Of a DNA stretch of 64,000 nucleotides, positions 27,464 to 31,635 are shown one piece after another (position 1 is the first letter of the stretch; every line of letters begins with the position of its first letter). The notes below the pieces were generated by a model that was not told the origin of the DNA, did not search any database, and worked only from the letters and a program-made list of their open reading frames with translations. The DNA lies in the NCBI GenBank assembly GCA_048881705.1, contig JBHLSH010000011.1, positions 1 to 64,000 on the forward strand, given 5' to 3'. The position numbers and the translations under genes were made by a program. The stretch comes from Candidatus Heimdallarchaeota archaeon (GTDB lineage: Archaea; Asgardarchaeota; Heimdallarchaeia; Hodarchaeales; Hodarchaeaceae).

Positions 27464-28549
27464 ATGACAAAGATTCGAGTCGCTATTGCCGGTCTAGGTA
27501 ATTGTGCTTCCGCTCTCATTCAAGGAGTTCATTATTATCGAAATGAAAAGGATGATACACGCGTCCCAGGGCTCATGCACGTTAGGTTCGGGGAGTATCA
27601 TGTCAAGGATTTAGAATTTGTAGCTGCTTTCGAAGTTAATCGCGACAAGATCGGGAAATCGATTAGTGAGGCCATTTGGGTGCCTCCTAATTGTACCCCA
27701 AAATTCAGTGATGTGCCTCAAACAAAGGCTCGAGTATATCCAGGTCCAATTTCCGATGGTGTTCCTGAACACATGGTGAAATCATTTCGCTGCTATAATC
27801 CCGAGGAAACGAAAACAGCTGACATTGCTGAAATCTTAAATGAGACACAAGCCGATATCCTTGTAAATTTCCTCCCGGTTGGTAGTGAAGACGCTACTCG
27901 TTTATACGTTGACGCGTGTTTAGATACGGGTGTGGCCTTAGCTAATGGAATTCCGACTTTTATCGTGTCAGATCCTTCGAAAATTTGGCCCAAGAAATTC
28001 ATAGAGAAAGGAATACCCTGCGCTGGCGATGATATCAAATCACAGGTGGGGGCCACTATTTTGCATCGAGTGTTGGCAAAACTGATGCTTGACCGGGGTG
28101 TCGAAATCAAAAAGACTTACCAACTTAATGTGGGCGGTAACACCGATTTTGAGAACATGAAATACGAATCCAGGCTAAAAACGAAGCGGATCAGCAAAAC
28201 AGAAGCAGTTACAAGTTTGATACCACATGATGTGCCAACTCGAATTGGGCCCTCCGACTATGTGCCGTTCTTGAATGATCGCAAGATTTGCTACCTCTTG
28301 TTGGAAGGAGAAAAATTCGGAGGACAGCCGCTTTCAATCGAGTTAAAGCTCTCAGTTATCGATTCGCCCAACTCAGCTGGCGTAATGATTGACGTAATCC
28401 GTGCTCTTAAGATAGCACAAGATAGAAACGTGAAAGGACCCTTGACCTCAATTTCTTCGTATGCATTTAAGCACCCACCTAAACAAATTCCAGATTTCGA
28501 GGCACACAATTTGGTTGAGCAGTTCATAGCGGGAGAGGTAGAGAGATGA
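27464..28549 (+). CDS. ino1: Inositol-3-phosphate synthase
   Basis: IAGLGNCASALIQG, LPVGSEDA, GDDIKSQVGAT, QLNVGGNTDF, SKTEAV, GPSDYV, DSPNSAGV. Confidence 0.98.
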   Translation: MTKIRVAIAGLGNCASALIQGVHYYRNEKDDTRVPGLMHVRFGEYHVKDLEFVAAFEVNRDKIGKSISEAIWVPPNCTPKFSDVPQTKARVYPGPISDGVPEHMVKSFRCYNPEETKTADIAEILNETQADILVNFLPVGSEDATRLYVDACLDTGVALANGIPTFIVSDPSKIWPKKFIEKGIPCAGDDIKSQVGATILHRVLAKLMLDRGVEIKKTYQLNVGGNTDFENMKYESRLKTKRISKTEAVTSLIPHDVPTRIGPSDYVPFLNDRKICYLLLEGEKFGGQPLSIELKLSVIDSPNSAGVMIDVIRALKIAQDRNVKGPLTSISSYAFKHPPKQIPDFEAHNLVEQFIAGEVER

Positions 28550-28584
28550 TTAATAAGTTGGCAATATTTCAGTGAGAGGATTTT

Positions 28585-29523
28585 TTGAACATAAGAGAAG
28601 CTTTTCGGGATTTTTATGACCTAACTCGGCTCCCACTTGGAATAATGGGAGCGATTATGGGATTAACCGCAGGGATGATCGTCGTTCTTGTTCAACGAAA
28701 AGAGCCAGGCCAAAACTCTATCCTAGCAGTTATTCAGTTGTTACCTGAGTACTGGGATCTTGCTACGCTAGGTTTGGCCATCCCCTTCCTAATTGTGGGG
28801 GCTTCGATGGCTCTAAATGATTTTCATGATGTAGAGGCCGATCGGATCAATCAACGAATGGATCGGCCCTTGGTTCGCAATCCCTCCCTGAATCCTCAGT
28901 ACGTTCTCTTCTTGGCCCTTTCGATGATCGCACTTGGAATAATTATCTCATTCTTTCTATTTGTGGACAATCTTTTAGTGACAATTGGCGTAGCGATATT
29001 TAGTTTTCTGTCGATATCTTATAATCTATGGACCAAAGAAATGGGTATCATTGGTAACATGACGGTAGCGGCAAGTGATACAGCGCCCGCTATTTTGGCC
29101 CTGATTGCACTTAGGGGAACTGATCCTTCCACAATTCTTTTAGTTCTTTCAATGTCTGGTATCACTTTTTTTGGGGTTGTTGGTCGTGAGCTAGTTAAGG
29201 GAGTGATGGATATTGAGGGGGATAGAATTGCTAGATCAAATACTTTTGCTGTTAGGTTTGGACCGATAAGAGCTGTTCAATTAGCAACAATTTTTTTCGT
29301 TATATTAGCAGCTATCGCGCCTGTTCCATTATTTGTGAAGTTTCACAATAATTTACTCTATGTGATTCTAATGGGAATTACTCTTGGTCTCTTTTTCTAT
29401 AGCATTATCATTCTCTATCAAAATCCATCCGTAGAAAACGGAAAGAAAGCGAGGTCATACACTCGATTGGCGCTTTGGACAGGGGCATTATCCTTTTTGG
29501 CAGGTGCCCTCTTCTTGCCTTAA
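28585..29523 (+). CDS. UbiA-family prenyltransferase, DGGGP synthase-like
   Basis: First Asp-rich motif NDFHDVEADRIN...RPL; second motif RELVKGVMDIEGD; about eight TM helices. Confidence 0.8.
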   Translation: MNIREAFRDFYDLTRLPLGIMGAIMGLTAGMIVVLVQRKEPGQNSILAVIQLLPEYWDLATLGLAIPFLIVGASMALNDFHDVEADRINQRMDRPLVRNPSLNPQYVLFLALSMIALGIIISFFLFVDNLLVTIGVAIFSFLSISYNLWTKEMGIIGNMTVAASDTAPAILALIALRGTDPSTILLVLSMSGITFFGVVGRELVKGVMDIEGDRIARSNTFAVRFGPIRAVQLATIFFVILAAIAPVPLFVKFHNNLLYVILMGITLGLFFYSIIILYQNPSVENGKKARSYTRLALWTGALSFLAGALFLP

Positions 29524-29547
29524 TGTCATCCGCCCTAGGTTGAAACG

Positions 29548-30942
29548 ATGTTTGGTGATCCGAGTTTATTCTGTCAACGGATAGCTGAACGAAGTCGACT
29601 TCTTGAAGGCGAAGAAGGGATCAGAAAAATCATAGTGGAAATGTATCGCAGACAAGACCGTAAGATCTCAAACAAAGAACTAGCAATGCTTGTTAAGATC
29701 CCTGTCCCAGTATTATCTGCTGTGAGAAGTGAGTTGTTAAATGCAGGGTTCCTTGAAACCAAGAGTATTATATCTCCAGATGCTATTAAATGGATCAAAT
29801 CCGACTTAAAGTTAAACTATCCGTATACTTTCTTTCATGAGTTTATTTCATCTCTAGATAGCCCCCTTTCTCAAACCTATTACGACTTTTTCAAACCTGT
29901 CGTTACCTATCTTGATAAAAGACCATCTCCAGCCTATGAATATGATCAGTCAAGAAGTACCATAGAAACTGTCCTGAAAAGGGCCATGCTAATGCTTCTG
30001 AATGGAGATGTAGAAGGAAAAAGAATTATTGTTATGGGCGATGACGATGGAGTCTCATTAGCACTCGCCCACCTCCAATGTGCTGAAAAAATACTTGTTT
30101 TGGATATAGACCCTAGAGTTACCGAATATGTCGAATCTTTTAGCAAGCAATACGGTTTCACTTCCGTTTTAGGTTCGCGGATTTATGATATTCGAGGAAA
30201 TTTGCAGGAACCCTGGGTTCGCGGGTTTAATGTTTTCGAAACAGATCCCCCTTATACGGTCCCGGGGTTTCGCCTGTTTATTCAACAGGCATTAAAATTT
30301 CTGGATCCGTACAGGAGTGGAAAAGGATACATTTCGTTTGGAACTAAATCTCCCCATTCGACTTGGTTATGTCAACAATATCTTCTAGAGAATGGATTTA
30401 CGATAAGCGACTTTTTTTCTGGGTTTAATGAATATTTAGGATCTACAATATTAGGAAATAGATCCAACCTATATGTTGTGAGCAATGTACCTCAAAAATA
30501 TAGCATTCCGGAAAGTAAAAGCCTCAATCTGGCGATTTATACCGCCGATGAAGAACAAAAGAAGAAAGGCTTGGCCAAGGGTCTGCCATCCGTAGGATTC
30601 CAGATTATCGCAGAATTTTACGGTGTCAAACACAAGTTGCTTACAGACGCATCTCTGCTCCAAGATATACTACAGCATGGGATCACTTTAAGCAGGCTTA
30701 AAGTAGATGAACTCTTCGTCAAAGAGTACACTCCTTTTGGATTTTCAATCATTGCGATTTTGGTTGAAAGCCATTGTCACCTACACACATGGCCTGAACA
30801 TGAATATTTAGCATTAGACCTATTTGTATGCGAAGAACAAGAGAAAGCTGAAATATTGTATAATTTCCTCATAGACCAACTTGAACCCCTAGATTATCAC
30901 TCCAGAAAATTCTTTCGAGGTACTCCTGGAAGGTCTTATTAA
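29548..30942 (+). CDS. bpsA-speD: Fusion of branched-chain polyamine synthase BpsA (DUF43) and pyruvoyl-dependent S-adenosylmethionine decarboxylase
   Basis: N-part: YDQ...TVLKRA, GDVEGKRIIVMGDDDGVSL, LDIDPR, ETDPPYT. C-part: IIAEFYG, PFGFSIIAILVESHCHLHTWPEHEYLALDLFVC. One continuous frame. Confidence 0.88.
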   Translation: MFGDPSLFCQRIAERSRLLEGEEGIRKIIVEMYRRQDRKISNKELAMLVKIPVPVLSAVRSELLNAGFLETKSIISPDAIKWIKSDLKLNYPYTFFHEFISSLDSPLSQTYYDFFKPVVTYLDKRPSPAYEYDQSRSTIETVLKRAMLMLLNGDVEGKRIIVMGDDDGVSLALAHLQCAEKILVLDIDPRVTEYVESFSKQYGFTSVLGSRIYDIRGNLQEPWVRGFNVFETDPPYTVPGFRLFIQQALKFLDPYRSGKGYISFGTKSPHSTWLCQQYLLENGFTISDFFSGFNEYLGSTILGNRSNLYVVSNVPQKYSIPESKSLNLAIYTADEEQKKKGLAKGLPSVGFQIIAEFYGVKHKLLTDASLLQDILQHGITLSRLKVDELFVKEYTPFGFSIIAILVESHCHLHTWPEHEYLALDLFVCEEQEKAEILYNFLIDQLEPLDYHSRKFFRGTPGRSY

Positions 30943-30969
30943 AAGATAAAAACGTCAAGCGGTGAGTTT

Positions 30970-31635
30970 TTGGCAGATGACCCAGAAGTCGAGCTAGAAG
31001 CAAGTACAGACTTCAATTTTTTCAATGAACTTACCCGTAAATCAGTTCATTTGCTTGTGTTGCTCATTCCTCTGACCTATCATGTTTTGAATTTTGACTT
31101 ATGGATCATTCAGCTTGCGTTGCTTGCCACATTAGTGTTTTTCATACCTCTGGAGTTTTATAGACTTAGAATAAACCCTAACTTTTGGCTTAACTACCTA
31201 ACCAGACAAGCCGAAAAAACGGAGCCTGCCAATTATGTGGTTGTCTCAATAGTATGGTTTCTAATATTATTAGGGGTGAACCTATTCTATTCTATTGAGA
31301 TGGCTGAGATGGCAATTGTGTCAACCCATCTTGGGGATTCTCTCGCTGCGCTTTTTGGACGGGGTCTTGGAAAAAATCGATTGCCCCTAACAGAAGGGAA
31401 GACCATTGAGGGTTATATAGCAGGAGTTCTCGGGACGTACAGCCTGGCTTGGATTTTCCTATCATGGCTTGGTATCCCCTCATTATTACTCCCCGTGCTG
31501 CCAGCCCTCGTAGTCGGTCTTTTTGATTTCTTCGAAAACCTACCTTTTTGGGCGGCAGACAATCTAATCCATCCTGGGGTAACTGTCTTCGTCATCTTTA
31601 TTCTTGATATGGTAGGAATTCTCCATTACTTGTAA
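30970..31635 (+). CDS. CTP-dependent isoprenoid alcohol kinase (SEC59/dolichol/phytol kinase family)
   Basis: ELTRKSVHL, GDSLAALFGRGLG, KTIEG, DNL; about six TM helices. Confidence 0.85.
   Translation: MADDPEVELEASTDFNFFNELTRKSVHLLVLLIPLTYHVLNFDLWIIQLALLATLVFFIPLEFYRLRINPNFWLNYLTRQAEKTEPANYVVVSIVWFLILLGVNLFYSIEMAEMAIVSTHLGDSLAALFGRGLGKNRLPLTEGKTIEGYIAGVLGTYSLAWIFLSWLGIPSLLLPVLPALVVGLFDFFENLPFWAADNLIHPGVTVFVIFILDMVGILHYL

What the first reader, a model, noticed from the sequence alone, without database searches (positions are those of the whole stretch)
29548..30942. Branched-chain polyamine synthase fused to its own dcSAM-supplying decarboxylase (BpsA-SpeD)
Seen: one frame carries the BpsA GDDD motif (G164-D167, nt 30037) and a C-terminal class-1b AdoMetDC with the ESH autocleavage site (E407/S408, nt 30766-30771), HTWPE and the catalytic Cys. 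Established: BpsA makes N4-bis(aminopropyl)spermidine from dcSAM and is characteristic of (hyper)thermophiles such as Thermococcus; AdoMetDC cleaves itself at Glu-Ser to form a pyruvoyl group; the fusions I know are SpeD with SpeE-class aminopropyltransferases. Inference: a self-processing, potentially channelling enzyme in which BpsA stays attached to the decarboxylase beta chain. It would imply branched polyamines, and perhaps thermophily or a thermophilic legacy, in an Asgard lineage. Caveat: some SpeD homologues are Arg or Orn decarboxylases.
Basis: partly seen in the sequence, partly recalled or inferred. Interest (0 to 1): 0.75.

Follow-up and report, generated by a model that had tools for sequence, protein, structure and literature searches.

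The report
BpsA-like aminopropyltransferase fused to SAM decarboxylase
An Asgard (Heimdall-group) archaeon makes, as one self-cleaving protein, the enzyme that produces the aminopropyl donor for polyamine synthesis and a relative of the heat-lovers' branched-polyamine synthase that should spend it; the fusion is real, recurrent and unstudied, but the transferase is not the classical branched-polyamine enzyme and its product is unknown.

Summary
ORF 29548-30942 (+) encodes 464 aa with Pfam BpsA_C (1.8e-44) followed by AdoMet_dc (2.3e-24). GDDD, the E407/S408 cleavage site, HTWPE and Cys428 lie at the stated bases. All are invariant in 60 fused homologues of 33-86% identity.

- The SpeD half meets every testable mark of a true class 1b AdoMetDC.
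- The transferase half belongs to a strongly supported Asgard clade, separate from the characterised Thermococcus/Thermus BpsA clade. Lys267 replaces the acceptor-activating Glu259, and the acidic C-terminal lid is missing.
- The genome (91% complete) has no SpeE and no other SpeD, so the fusion is its only detectable dcSAM route.
- The same architecture occurs in Odin- and Lokiarchaeota, Xenorhabdus, Erysipelothrix and Lachnospiraceae, annotated only as "adenosylmethionine decarboxylase". It is therefore not a thermophily marker.
- No paper in the searched library describes it. This scan noted the same fusion earlier on other DNA.

New here: in 14 of 14 species of the genus the gene sits in a tight block of inositol-phosphate synthase, UbiA prenyltransferase, the fusion and a polyprenol-kinase-like gene. 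In three other Asgard lineages and one Methanocellales genome it lies beside archaetidylserine decarboxylase/synthase genes. The acceptor is untested.

The parts
29548..30942 (+). Whole ORF, 464 aa: N-terminal wHTH-like domain, BpsA-family Rossmann domain, short linker and class 1b AdoMetDC proenzyme domain
   Evidence: AF2 model mean pLDDT 87.6. The start MFGDP is conserved in homologues.
29548..29898 (+). N-terminal helical, winged-helix-like domain (residues 1-117), shared with solved BpsA structures
   Evidence: Foldseek alignments to 2qm3/5xnc/6j27 span about 350 columns. Invariant L18, E20, G21, G24, R34, N42, K43, P52, P54, V55, A58, E62. Weak MarR/HTH_24 hits on the same region of relative P0078.
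29899..30459 (+). BpsA_C (PF01861) class-I-methyltransferase-fold aminopropyltransferase core, residues 118-304 (profile positions 6-191 of 243)
30037..30048 (+). GDDD motif (G164-D167), the dcSAM aminopropyl-positioning motif of BpsA
   Evidence: invariant in 60. Role in Tk-BpsA from PMC12979288.
30244..30258 (+). D233-P-P-Y-T; D233 aligns with Tk-BpsA Asp225
30346..30348 (+). Lys267, invariant, at the position of the acceptor-activating Glu259 of Tk-BpsA (K/R-x-P in all non-canonical clades, E/D in canonical BpsA)
   Evidence: HMMER alignments to 5xnc, 6j27 and 2qm3; MAFFT alignment with canonical representatives
30535..30555 (+). I330-Y-T-A-D-E-E336: subfamily-wide 'IYTxD/E' motif that ends the transferase. 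Only D334 and E335 are conserved acidic residues, and it stands where canonical BpsA has its acidic lid.
30583..30939 (+). Class 1b S-adenosylmethionine decarboxylase proenzyme domain (residues 346-464)
   Evidence: Foldseek TM 0.87, rmsd 1.7 A to 1tlu/1tmi.
30766..30771 (+). E407/S408: predicted autocatalytic serinolysis site. Ser408 becomes the pyruvoyl group (equivalent to T. maritima E62/S63).
30784..30786 (+). His413, equivalent of T. maritima His68
30829..30831 (+). Cys428, equivalent of T. maritima Cys83 (proton donor)
27464..28549 (+). Upstream operon partner: myo-inositol-1-phosphate synthase (one of two paralogues in the genome)
28585..29523 (+). Upstream operon partner: UbiA-family prenyltransferase (DGGGP-synthase-like), 24 nt before the fusion
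30970..31635 (+). Downstream operon partner: 221-aa membrane protein of the CTP_transf_1 / polyprenol-, phytol-, dolichol-kinase kind, 27 nt after the fusion

Best explanation
The gene encodes a bifunctional proenzyme.

Its C-terminal class 1b AdoMetDC domain cleaves itself between Glu407 and Ser408. This turns Ser408 into a pyruvoyl group and yields a 46-kDa beta chain (wHTH-like domain, aminopropyltransferase and the first half of the decarboxylase fold) and a 7-kDa alpha chain. The two chains stay together because both are needed for one sandwich fold. The protein probably works as a two-fold dimer in which both the transferase domains and the decarboxylase domains pair.

The decarboxylase makes decarboxylated SAM. 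The attached BpsA-family domain, with an intact GDDD donor site, transfers its aminopropyl group to an amine.

This genome has no SpeE and no second SpeD, so the fusion is its only detectable dcSAM-dependent aminopropyl-transfer system. My best guess is that it builds spermidine-class polyamine(s) from putrescine or agmatine, possibly extending them, rather than acting only as the thermophile-type N4-branching enzyme.

Shown: architecture, conservation, fold, phyletic pattern and gene neighbourhood. Inferred: self-cleavage, dcSAM use and coupling of the two sites. Unknown: acceptor and product.
For: Both domains score above curated cut-offs. The catalytic residues of both are invariant in 60 homologues of 33-86% identity: GDDD, D233, Y296; E356, E407-S408-H409, H413, P416, C428. 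Folds match BpsA (E about 1e-20) and AdoMetDC (TM 0.87).

The two functions are linked in at least three independent ways:
- an Asgard BpsA-SpeD fusion clade;
- a separate bacterial fusion clade;
- adjacent speD then bpsA-like genes in a sister family of the class and in Archaeoglobaceae, Bathyarchaeia, Methanocellales and Chloroflexota.

In the one lineage where the SpeD catalytic residues have decayed (P0077), GDDD is also altered to GDAD.

The own genome has one SpeD, one BpsA_C and no Spermine_synth match. Real SpeE occurs in 1 of 83 genomes of the class. No CASDH or CASDC orthologue scores near its cut-off. DHS, a PLP decarboxylase and agmatinase-like genes are present.

Homodimer model: score 0.54 against best control 0.00. 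That mark was reached by 20 of 30 solved homo-pairs and 1 of 23 solved monomers. The runs share at least 62% of contacts and the partner pLDDT is at least 79. The interface uses both domains. Both parent families have solved dimers, so the pass may be from memory.
Against: No activity was tested. Deoxyhypusine synthase is present in 79 of 83 genomes of the class, including 31 genomes of one family with neither SpeD nor SpeE. These archaea therefore have some other spermidine source (an unknown pathway or uptake), and the fusion need not be the spermidine synthase.

The genome is 91% complete, so a missing speE is not proof of absence. A Lys at the Glu259 position is unexpected for an enzyme that binds a polycationic acceptor. 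The conserved neighbours are lipid genes, not polyamine genes. Xenorhabdus, which carries the same architecture, belongs to a group that normally has speED (my own knowledge, not tested here), so there the fusion probably does something else.
Confidence: 0.55

Rival explanations
1. [quoted passage not shown] It would convert spermidine to N4-aminopropylspermidine and N4-bis(aminopropyl)spermidine.
For: Best Pfam and PDB matches are BpsA. GDDD, D233 (Tk D225) and Y296 (Tk Y290) are conserved. A dcSAM-independent spermidine source must exist in the class and could feed it.
Against: The domain lies in a separate clade from the characterised enzymes. More than 150 representatives at 50% identity score higher against the query (at least 100 bits) than the solved BpsAs do (89-95 bits). 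Glu259 is replaced by Lys. The acidic C-terminal lid that carries the aminopropyl group and sets product specificity is absent. There is no SpeE in the genome. The same fusion occurs in mesophilic bacteria.
Confidence: 0.2
2. The acceptor is not a free polyamine but an amine-bearing polar-lipid head group or its precursor (for example archaetidylethanolamine or phosphoethanolamine). The product would be an aminopropylated, more cationic lipid.
For: In 14 of 14 species genomes of the genus the gene lies in a tight same-strand block of MIPS, UbiA prenyltransferase, the fusion and a polyprenol-kinase-like gene, with gaps of 24-35 nt. The order-level relatives keep MIPS(-UbiA)-BpsA. In three other fused Asgard lineages (about 33-38% identical) the next gene is archaetidylserine decarboxylase, followed in two of them by archaetidylserine synthase. 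A Methanocellales speD-bpsA pair lies 2 kb from the same two genes. An invariant Lys in place of an acceptor-site Glu would suit a phosphate-bearing acceptor. Relatives are fused to LPG_synthase_C and to carrier-protein domains.
Against: The protein has no membrane segment. No such lipid is known to me, and none was found in the literature search. Loki- and other Promethearchaeota loci show no lipid neighbours. The own genome's PSD/synthase pair is on another contig. Neighbourhood may reflect co-regulation of cationic molecules rather than a shared pathway.
Confidence: 0.12
3. The SpeD-like domain is a neofunctionalised pyruvoyl arginine or ornithine decarboxylase (SpeDA/SpeDC). It would supply the amine acceptor rather than the donor.
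For: Such neofunctionalisation is widespread, and SpeDA is hard to tell from SpeD by sequence (PMC10407285).
Against: The domain scores above the curated AdoMetDC equivalog cut-off. Both central-region prolines, P396 and P416, are invariant, and one completely conserved Pro distinguishes true AdoMetDC from SpeDA. The genome has a separate PLP decarboxylase plus agmatinase-like genes. If this domain were not AdoMetDC, the transferase would have no dcSAM source at all.
Confidence: 0.06
4. The N-domain is a plain SAM-dependent methyltransferase or is inactive, and the fusion has no coupled chemistry.
For: The fold is a class I methyltransferase fold, and the next-best structural matches are methyltransferases.
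Against: The GDDD donor motif specific to aminopropyl transfer is invariant. There is recurrent independent linkage to SpeD. GDDD and the SpeD catalytic residues decay together in P0077.
Confidence: 0.03

Closest known systems
BpsA, N4-bis(aminopropyl)spermidine synthase (EC 2.5.1.128): Thermococcus kodakarensis TK1691 (PDB 5xnc/5xnf/5xnh), Thermus thermophilus (6j27), P. furiosus homologue (2qm3)
   Same: Same Pfam family (PF01861). Same two-domain fold: N-terminal helical domain plus Rossmann domain. GDDD donor motif, D233 = Tk D225 and Y296 = Tk Y290 are shared. Presumably the same donor, dcSAM.
   Different: Different, strongly supported clade. Lys267 stands for Glu259. A different C-terminal third ('FNxYxGxxxxGNxSNLY...IYTxD/E') replaces the acidic lid with Glu339 and Asp342-Glu345. 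It is fused to AdoMetDC. The genome has no SpeE. The organism is not an evident thermophile, and relatives occur in mesophiles.
Class 1b S-adenosylmethionine decarboxylase SpeD (Thermotoga maritima 1tlu/1vr7, Aquifex aeolicus 2iii)
   Same: Same fold (TM 0.87, rmsd 1.7 A). Has the E-S cleavage site and equivalents of Glu11, Ser55, His68 and Cys83. Has the HTWPE motif with the Pro that marks true AdoMetDC. Scores above the TIGR03330 cut-off.
   Different: About 345 residues of another enzyme are attached to the N-terminus of its beta chain. The alpha chain is short (57 aa).
SpeD-SpeDC double-pyruvoyl fusions of Desulfotignum phosphitoxidans and Ca. Omnitrophica (Li et al. 2023, PMC10407285), and SpeD fusions or operons with SpeE-type aminopropyltransferases
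   Same: Polyamine-pathway enzymes are joined to a self-processing class 1b SpeD in one polypeptide, with the products of one ORF staying associated after cleavage.
   Different: The partner here is a PF01861 transferase, not a SpeD homologue or SpeE. That paper reports no SpeD-SpeD fusion in archaea and does not mention PF01861 partners.
Unfused speD then bpsA-like gene pairs (sister family f7 of the same class; Archaeoglobaceae, Bathyarchaeia, Methanocellales)
   Same: Same two activities, same non-canonical transferase signature (K/R-x-P, IYTGE), and no SpeE in the f7 genomes.
   Different: Two genes in the opposite order. The transferase ends in a CxxC...CxxC zinc-ribbon-like tail that the Asgard fusions lack.

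Membership tests
BpsA / PF01861 family (broad) | Significant match to Pfam BpsA_C above the gathering score | tested here: met
   152.2 bits against a cut-off of 27, residues 118-304. Only profile positions 6-191 of 243 are matched.
BpsA / PF01861 family (broad) | GDDD motif that positions the aminopropyl group of dcSAM (Tk 157-160) | tested here: met
   G164-D167, invariant in 60 homologues. Role taken from PMC12979288.
Branched-chain polyamine synthase proper (EC 2.5.1.128) | Acceptor-activating residues Asp225, Glu259, Tyr290, Tyr316 of Tk-BpsA | tested here: not met
   D233 and Y296 are conserved. Glu259 is replaced by the invariant Lys267 in three independent HMMER alignments and in the MAFFT alignment. 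Tyr316 is probably Y331, but this is an alignment-only inference.
Branched-chain polyamine synthase proper (EC 2.5.1.128) | Flexible acidic C-terminal lid (Tk Glu339, Asp342-Glu345) that carries the aminopropyl group and sets product specificity | tested here: not met
   The canonical C-terminal segment has no counterpart. Only D334-E335 are conserved after IYT, followed by Lys-Lys and the SpeD domain.
Branched-chain polyamine synthase proper (EC 2.5.1.128) | Groups with characterised enzymes in a family tree | tested here: not met
   FastTree on 150 rows. The window lies in a 14-row Asgard clade (support 100). Canonical representatives (P0207 scores 288 bits to 2qm3 and 266 bits to 5xnc) lie in another clade (support 98). 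This was a quick method, and the deep branching between clades is unresolved.
Branched-chain polyamine synthase proper (EC 2.5.1.128) | Works downstream of a SpeE-type enzyme that supplies spermidine | tested here: not met
   No PF01564 match in the own genome (91% complete). Real SpeE occurs in 1 of 83 genomes of the class.
Branched-chain polyamine synthase proper (EC 2.5.1.128) | Produces N4-aminopropylspermidine and N4-bis(aminopropyl)spermidine | not testable with these tools
   Needs an enzyme assay or LC-MS.
Class 1b AdoMetDC (SpeD) | Match above the curated cut-offs of PF02675 and of the equivalog TIGR03330 | tested here: met
   86.2 bits (cut-off 25) and 83.7 bits (cut-off 75.65).
Class 1b AdoMetDC (SpeD) | Glu-Ser processing site plus catalytic His and Cys (T. 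maritima S63, H68, C83) | tested here: met
   E407/S408, H413 and C428 align to 1tlu/1vr7/2iii and are invariant in 60 homologues.
Class 1b AdoMetDC (SpeD) | Central-region Pro that is completely conserved in true AdoMetDC and variable in SpeDA arginine decarboxylases | tested here: met
   Both prolines of the central region, P396 and P416 (HTWPE), are invariant. The criterion is from PMC10407285. The figure that marks which Pro is meant could not be seen.
Class 1b AdoMetDC (SpeD) | Alpha-beta sandwich fold and dimer with active sites at the interface | tested here: met
   TM 0.87 to 1tlu/2iii. Dimer model score 0.54 against best control 0.00, with E356, S400, E407, H409 and H413 in the interface. 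This may reflect memory of solved dimers.
Class 1b AdoMetDC (SpeD) | Autocatalytic cleavage and SAM decarboxylation | not testable with these tools
   Needs expression, SDS-PAGE or mass spectrometry, and an activity assay.
SpeDC pyruvoyl ornithine decarboxylases | Four diagnostic residues (Gln, Thr, Phe, Tyr) in the central region | not tested
   The positions are defined only in a figure of PMC10407285 that is not held.
SpeE-type aminopropyltransferases (PF01564) | Match to Spermine_synth | tested here: not met
   No PF01564 hit on the protein or anywhere in the genome.

The most novel reading that the evidence does not exclude
The non-canonical BpsA-like/SpeD module is part of archaeal polar-lipid biosynthesis. 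It would aminopropylate an amine-bearing head group or precursor (for example archaetidylethanolamine made by the neighbouring archaetidylserine synthase and decarboxylase) and so create a polyamine-like cationic lipid in Asgard archaea. This would explain the conserved lipid-gene neighbourhoods and the Glu-to-Lys change in the acceptor site.
Probability: 0.12. Interest if true: 0.85.

Novelty: new variant of a known kind. Interest (0 to 1): 0.55.

Why it matters
Heimdall-group Asgard archaea are the closest known relatives of the eukaryotic host cell, and spermidine is needed for hypusination of (a/e)IF5A. This class almost entirely lacks the universal SpeE spermidine synthase while keeping deoxyhypusine synthase.

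A PF01861 enzyme with a built-in dcSAM generator is the only candidate aminopropyltransferase in this lineage. Its product would therefore say how these archaea make, or whether they make, the polyamine that eukaryotes depend on.

More generally, the work shows that 'BpsA' annotations cover a large uncharacterised subfamily. That subfamily has a different acceptor site and has been fused to SAM decarboxylase at least twice. Its presence should not be read as evidence for branched polyamines or thermophily.

The repeated linkage to phospholipid head-group genes is a concrete, testable lead to a new acceptor.

Tried and rejected
1. Eukaryote-type class 2 AdoMetDC (PF01536) as a hidden dcSAM source in the class: no hit in 83 genomes. 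The control set also had none, so this is uninformative.

2. Aspartate-semialdehyde route (CASDH/CASDC or the CAPA variant) as the spermidine source in the own genome:
- nspC model: only 21 bits (cut-off 409).
- Carboxynorspermidine synthase model: 39 bits (cut-off 800) on a saccharopine-dehydrogenase-family protein next to an agmatinase-like gene.
- Two other Sacchrp_dh proteins had no NCBIfam match.
Rejected as orthologues. A very divergent version cannot be excluded.

3. Pyruvoyl arginine decarboxylase PdaD: absent.

4. Using DHS presence to argue that the fusion must make spermidine: rejected, because DHS is also present in lineages without any SpeD.

5. Proteome thermophily proxies were ambiguous. 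IVYWREL 0.411 gives about 50 C by the Zeldovich formula, while the charged-versus-polar bias of 0.009 is mesophile-like. They are not used as evidence either way.

It was useful only for a handful of extra archaeal and bacterial loci.

7. Literature searches for BpsA/AdoMetDC fusion, Asgard with branched-chain polyamine, Asgard with aminopropyltransferase, DUF43, and aminopropyl with archaetidylethanolamine found no description of this architecture.

8. I could not place the Tk or Tt BpsA sequences themselves in the tree because no reference was available. Close representatives identified through PDB scores were used instead.

Full report
**Observation.** The window holds one uninterrupted ORF at 29548-30942 on the plus strand, 464 codons.
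- A script placed GDDD at residues 164-167 (nt 30037) and Glu407-Ser408-His409 at nt 30766.
- It placed HTWPE at 413-417 and Cys428 within FVC.
- The predicted alpha chain is 57 residues.
- Pfam gives BpsA_C on residues 118-304 (1.8e-44, 152 bits) and AdoMet_dc on 353-458 (2.3e-24, 86 bits).
- NCBIfam's AdoMetDC equivalog TIGR03330 scores 83.7 bits against a cut-off of 75.65.

**Conservation and structure.**
- A search of 5.8 billion proteins found about 69 clusters with the same two-domain architecture. Their sources name them Hodarchaeota/Hodarchaeales, Heimdallarchaeota or Promethearchaeota, and annotate them only as 'adenosylmethionine decarboxylase'.
- Sixty of them (33-86% identical) were aligned. 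Invariant residues are GDDD, D188, D214, D233-P-P-Y-T, K267, Y296, E356, P396, E407-S408-H409, H413, W415-P416-E417 and C428.
- An AlphaFold2 model built on that alignment has mean pLDDT 87.6. Confidence is lower only in the linker, residues 320-350.
- Foldseek puts the N-terminal roughly 350 residues on P. furiosus 2qm3, T. kodakarensis BpsA 5xnc and T. thermophilus BpsA 6j27 (E about 1e-20).
- It puts the C-terminal domain on AdoMetDC 2iii, 1tlu and 1vr7 (TM 0.85-0.87; rmsd 1.7 A for 1tlu/1vr7/1tmi, 2.6 A for 2iii).
- A two-copy model passed its controls: score 0.54 against best control 0.00. That mark was reached by 20 of 30 solved homo-pairs and 1 of 23 solved monomers. The runs share at least 62% of contacts, and the partner pLDDT is at least 79.
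- The interface uses both the transferase domain (266-291, 305-317) and the decarboxylase domain (346-358, 387-426, 453-458).
- Both parent families have solved dimers, so this shows likeness rather than proof.

**The decarboxylase half.**
- HMMER alignments to T. maritima and A. aeolicus AdoMetDC equate E356, S400, E407/S408, H413 and C428 with Tm Glu11, Ser55, Glu62/Ser63, His68 and Cys83.
- Li et al. 2023 (PMC10407285) report that S63, H68 and C83 are shared by true AdoMetDC and by the neofunctionalised arginine and ornithine decarboxylases. They also report that one central-region Pro is completely conserved only in true AdoMetDC.
- Both central prolines here (P396, P416) are invariant.
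- This is the only SpeD homologue in the genome.
- The genome also carries a separate PLP-dependent decarboxylase next to agmatinase-like and deoxyhypusine synthase genes.

I rate an arginine or ornithine decarboxylase reading at about 6%.

**The transferase half is BpsA-family but not canonical BpsA.**
- An exhaustive HMMER search with residues 1-345 found 1202 representatives (E <= 0.001). The 150th still scored 100 bits, more than the solved BpsAs score against the full protein (89-95 bits).
- In a FastTree of 150 rows the window lies in a 14-row clade with support 100. That clade holds the Asgard fusions and two unfused relatives from the same order.
- The canonical enzymes are represented by P0207 (288 bits to 2qm3, 266 bits to Tk-BpsA) and P0191. 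They form another clade with support 98.
- By the 2026 review of Fujiwara and Fukuda (PMC12979288), Tk-BpsA uses D159 and D160 of GDDD to hold dcSAM. It uses D225, E259, Y290 and Y316 to activate the acceptor.
- The same review describes a flexible acidic C-terminal lid (E339, D342-E345) that carries the aminopropyl group and sets product specificity.
- Here GDDD, D233 (= D225) and Y296 (= Y290) are kept. Three independent HMMER alignments and a MAFFT alignment put the invariant Lys267 at the Glu259 position.
- All non-canonical clades read K/R-x-P there, and all canonical representatives read E/D.
- The C-terminal third also differs. The subfamily motifs FNxYxGxxxxGNxSNLY and IYTxD/E replace the canonical segment.
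- Only D334 and E335 are conserved acidic residues before the SpeD domain begins.

Defining features of EC 2.5.1.128 were thus tested and not met. The protein probably works like an aminopropyltransferase, but it should not be filed as a branched-chain polyamine synthase.

**Why dcSAM coupling is nevertheless well supported.** The two functions are linked repeatedly and independently.
- 17 of the 150 best representatives are BpsA-SpeD fusions.
- By the names their sources give, these include Odinarchaeota, Lokiarchaeota, Promethearchaeota, Xenorhabdus (eight species), Erysipelothrix and a Lachnospiraceae bacterium.
- The bacterial fusions sit in a different clade and keep a zinc-ribbon-like insert, so the tree needs at least two origins.
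- In another family of the same class, and in Archaeoglobaceae, Bathyarchaeia, Methanocellales and Chloroflexota, a small speD gene lies directly before a bpsA-like gene.
- In the same order as the window, one genome has bpsA-like and speD as separate genes 18 nt apart in the fusion's order.
- In the one fused lineage whose SpeD catalytic residues have decayed (S408G, H409L, H413Q, C428R), GDDD reads GDAD.

**Genomic setting of polyamine metabolism.**
- The assembly is 3.96 Mb in 155 contigs, 91% complete. It has no Spermine_synth (SpeE) match, no PdaD, and no CASDH or CASDC orthologue near the cut-offs.
- Across 83 species genomes of the class, BpsA_C occurs in 71. SpeD occurs in 35, essentially the window's family (fused), its sister family and one further family (adjacent genes). 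A convincing SpeE occurs in a single genome.
- The fusion is therefore the only detectable dcSAM consumer here, which favours a role in making spermidine-class polyamines.
- The argument is weakened by one fact. Deoxyhypusine synthase is present in 79 of 83 genomes, including a 31-genome family with neither SpeD nor SpeE. Another spermidine source must therefore exist in the class.

**Gene neighbourhood.**
- In the window the gene is flanked on the same strand, with gaps of 35, 24 and 27 nt, by three genes: a myo-inositol-1-phosphate synthase, a UbiA-family prenyltransferase, and a 221-aa membrane protein of the polyprenol-, phytol- or dolichol-kinase kind.
- The block is identical in all 13 other species genomes of the genus that I examined, whose fusion proteins diverge to about 50% identity.
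- The order-level relatives keep MIPS-UbiA-BpsA or MIPS-BpsA-SpeD.
- The genome has second copies of MIPS and UbiA elsewhere, so this set may be specialised.
- In three other fused Asgard lineages (33-38% identical to the window protein) the next gene is an archaetidylserine-decarboxylase-like gene. In two of them an archaetidylserine-synthase-like gene follows.
- A Methanocellales speD-bpsA pair lies 2 kb from the same two genes.
- Loki- and other Promethearchaeota loci show no such neighbours.
- The chance that a single-copy gene lies within 6 kb of a given locus in a 3-4 Mb genome is about 0.3% by my arithmetic, so repeated linkage to polar-lipid genes is unlikely to be accidental.
- The linkage may mean co-regulation, or an amine-bearing lipid head group as acceptor. 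The second idea would also make sense of Lys267. I give it about 12%.

**Thermophily.** The same subfamily and fusion occur in mesophilic bacteria, and proteome proxies for this genome are ambiguous. BpsA-family membership here is therefore no evidence for thermophily or a thermophilic legacy.

**Literature and earlier notes.**
- Seven full-text searches found no description of a PF01861-SpeD fusion.
- The BpsA review mentions neither fusions nor Asgard archaea.
- Li et al. 2023 describe only SpeD-SpeD fusions, and none in archaea.
- This scan's own notes show that the same kind of fusion was flagged before in other genomes: other Asgard archaea, Erysipelothrix and a Patescibacteria-type bacterium. 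The follow-up conclusions there were similar.
- I treated those as leads and re-derived the points above independently. The lipid-gene linkage and the co-decay case are new here as far as those notes show.

**Verdict.** The gene encodes a self-processing AdoMetDC fused to a non-canonical BpsA-like aminopropyltransferase. It is the sole detectable dcSAM system of this Heimdall-group archaeon, and its acceptor and product are unknown. It is a new variant of a known kind, of moderate interest, with a concrete experimental path.

Noticed in passing
window 27464-31635 (+); also L020, L116-L127: The four-gene block of myo-inositol-1-phosphate synthase, UbiA prenyltransferase, BpsA-SpeD fusion and polyprenol/phytol-kinase-like membrane protein is conserved in 14 of 14 species genomes of the genus. 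The genome holds second MIPS (C2) and UbiA (C3, C31, C2) paralogues, so this set may be a specialised lipid module.
   Followed up: partly
L029 6001-9095; L033 3620-5795; L034 2084-5204; L059 2684-7421: In Odinarchaeota, two other Asgard lineages and a Methanocellales MAG, the BpsA-like/SpeD genes lie next to archaetidylserine decarboxylase-like and (except in L033) CDP-alcohol phosphatidyltransferase (archaetidylserine synthase-like) genes.
   Followed up: partly
L016 3888-6412 (genome G006, another family of the same class): A 31-genome family has BpsA-like genes but no SpeD or SpeE at all, yet keeps deoxyhypusine synthase. In the one genome I examined, the BpsA-like protein reads GDSD instead of GDDD and lies back to back with a LysA-like PLP decarboxylase. 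One idea: SAM-dependent 3-amino-3-carboxypropyl transfer followed by decarboxylation, a possible new spermidine route.
   Followed up: partly
L032 4666-6102 (protein P0077, Promethearchaeota): A fused homologue whose SpeD catalytic residues are all lost (S408G, H409L, H413Q, C428R) also has GDAD in place of GDDD. This looks like co-decay of the two active sites.
   Followed up: partly
L017 2986-5330 (genome G043): A small speD gene overlaps the start of a 659-aa protein. That protein has a hydrophobic, signal-like N-terminus and a divergent BpsA_C core (GDDD kept), which is another architecture of the family.
   Followed up: no
proteins P0078, P0094, P0115, P0159, P0190; P0160, P0161; P0105, P0178: Other PF01861 relatives are fused to GNAT acetyltransferase domains, to LPG_synthase_C (aminoacyl-lipid synthase-like) domains with a zinc ribbon, or to phosphopantetheine carrier domains. 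This hints at acylated polyamines or secondary metabolism.
   Followed up: no
G000 contig C86 12024-15078 (L012) and C95 10915-11418: The own genome has a cluster of an agmatinase-like gene, a LysA-like PLP decarboxylase and deoxyhypusine synthase. The DHS gene is cut by the contig end, and a second partial DHS lies at the end of contig C95, probably the same gene split by assembly.
   Followed up: partly
G000 contig C113 3794-6110 (L006, L026): An agmatinase-like gene is followed by a saccharopine-dehydrogenase-family gene with only a faint likeness (39 bits) to carboxynorspermidine synthase. It may be a very divergent ASA-dependent polyamine step, or unrelated.
   Followed up: partly
L019 3402-5155 and L018 2705-3079 (genome G058, same genus): The only genome of the class with convincing SpeE has two tandem speE genes and an extra stand-alone SpeD-like gene, in addition to the fusion. 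This looks like an acquired second polyamine system.
   Followed up: no
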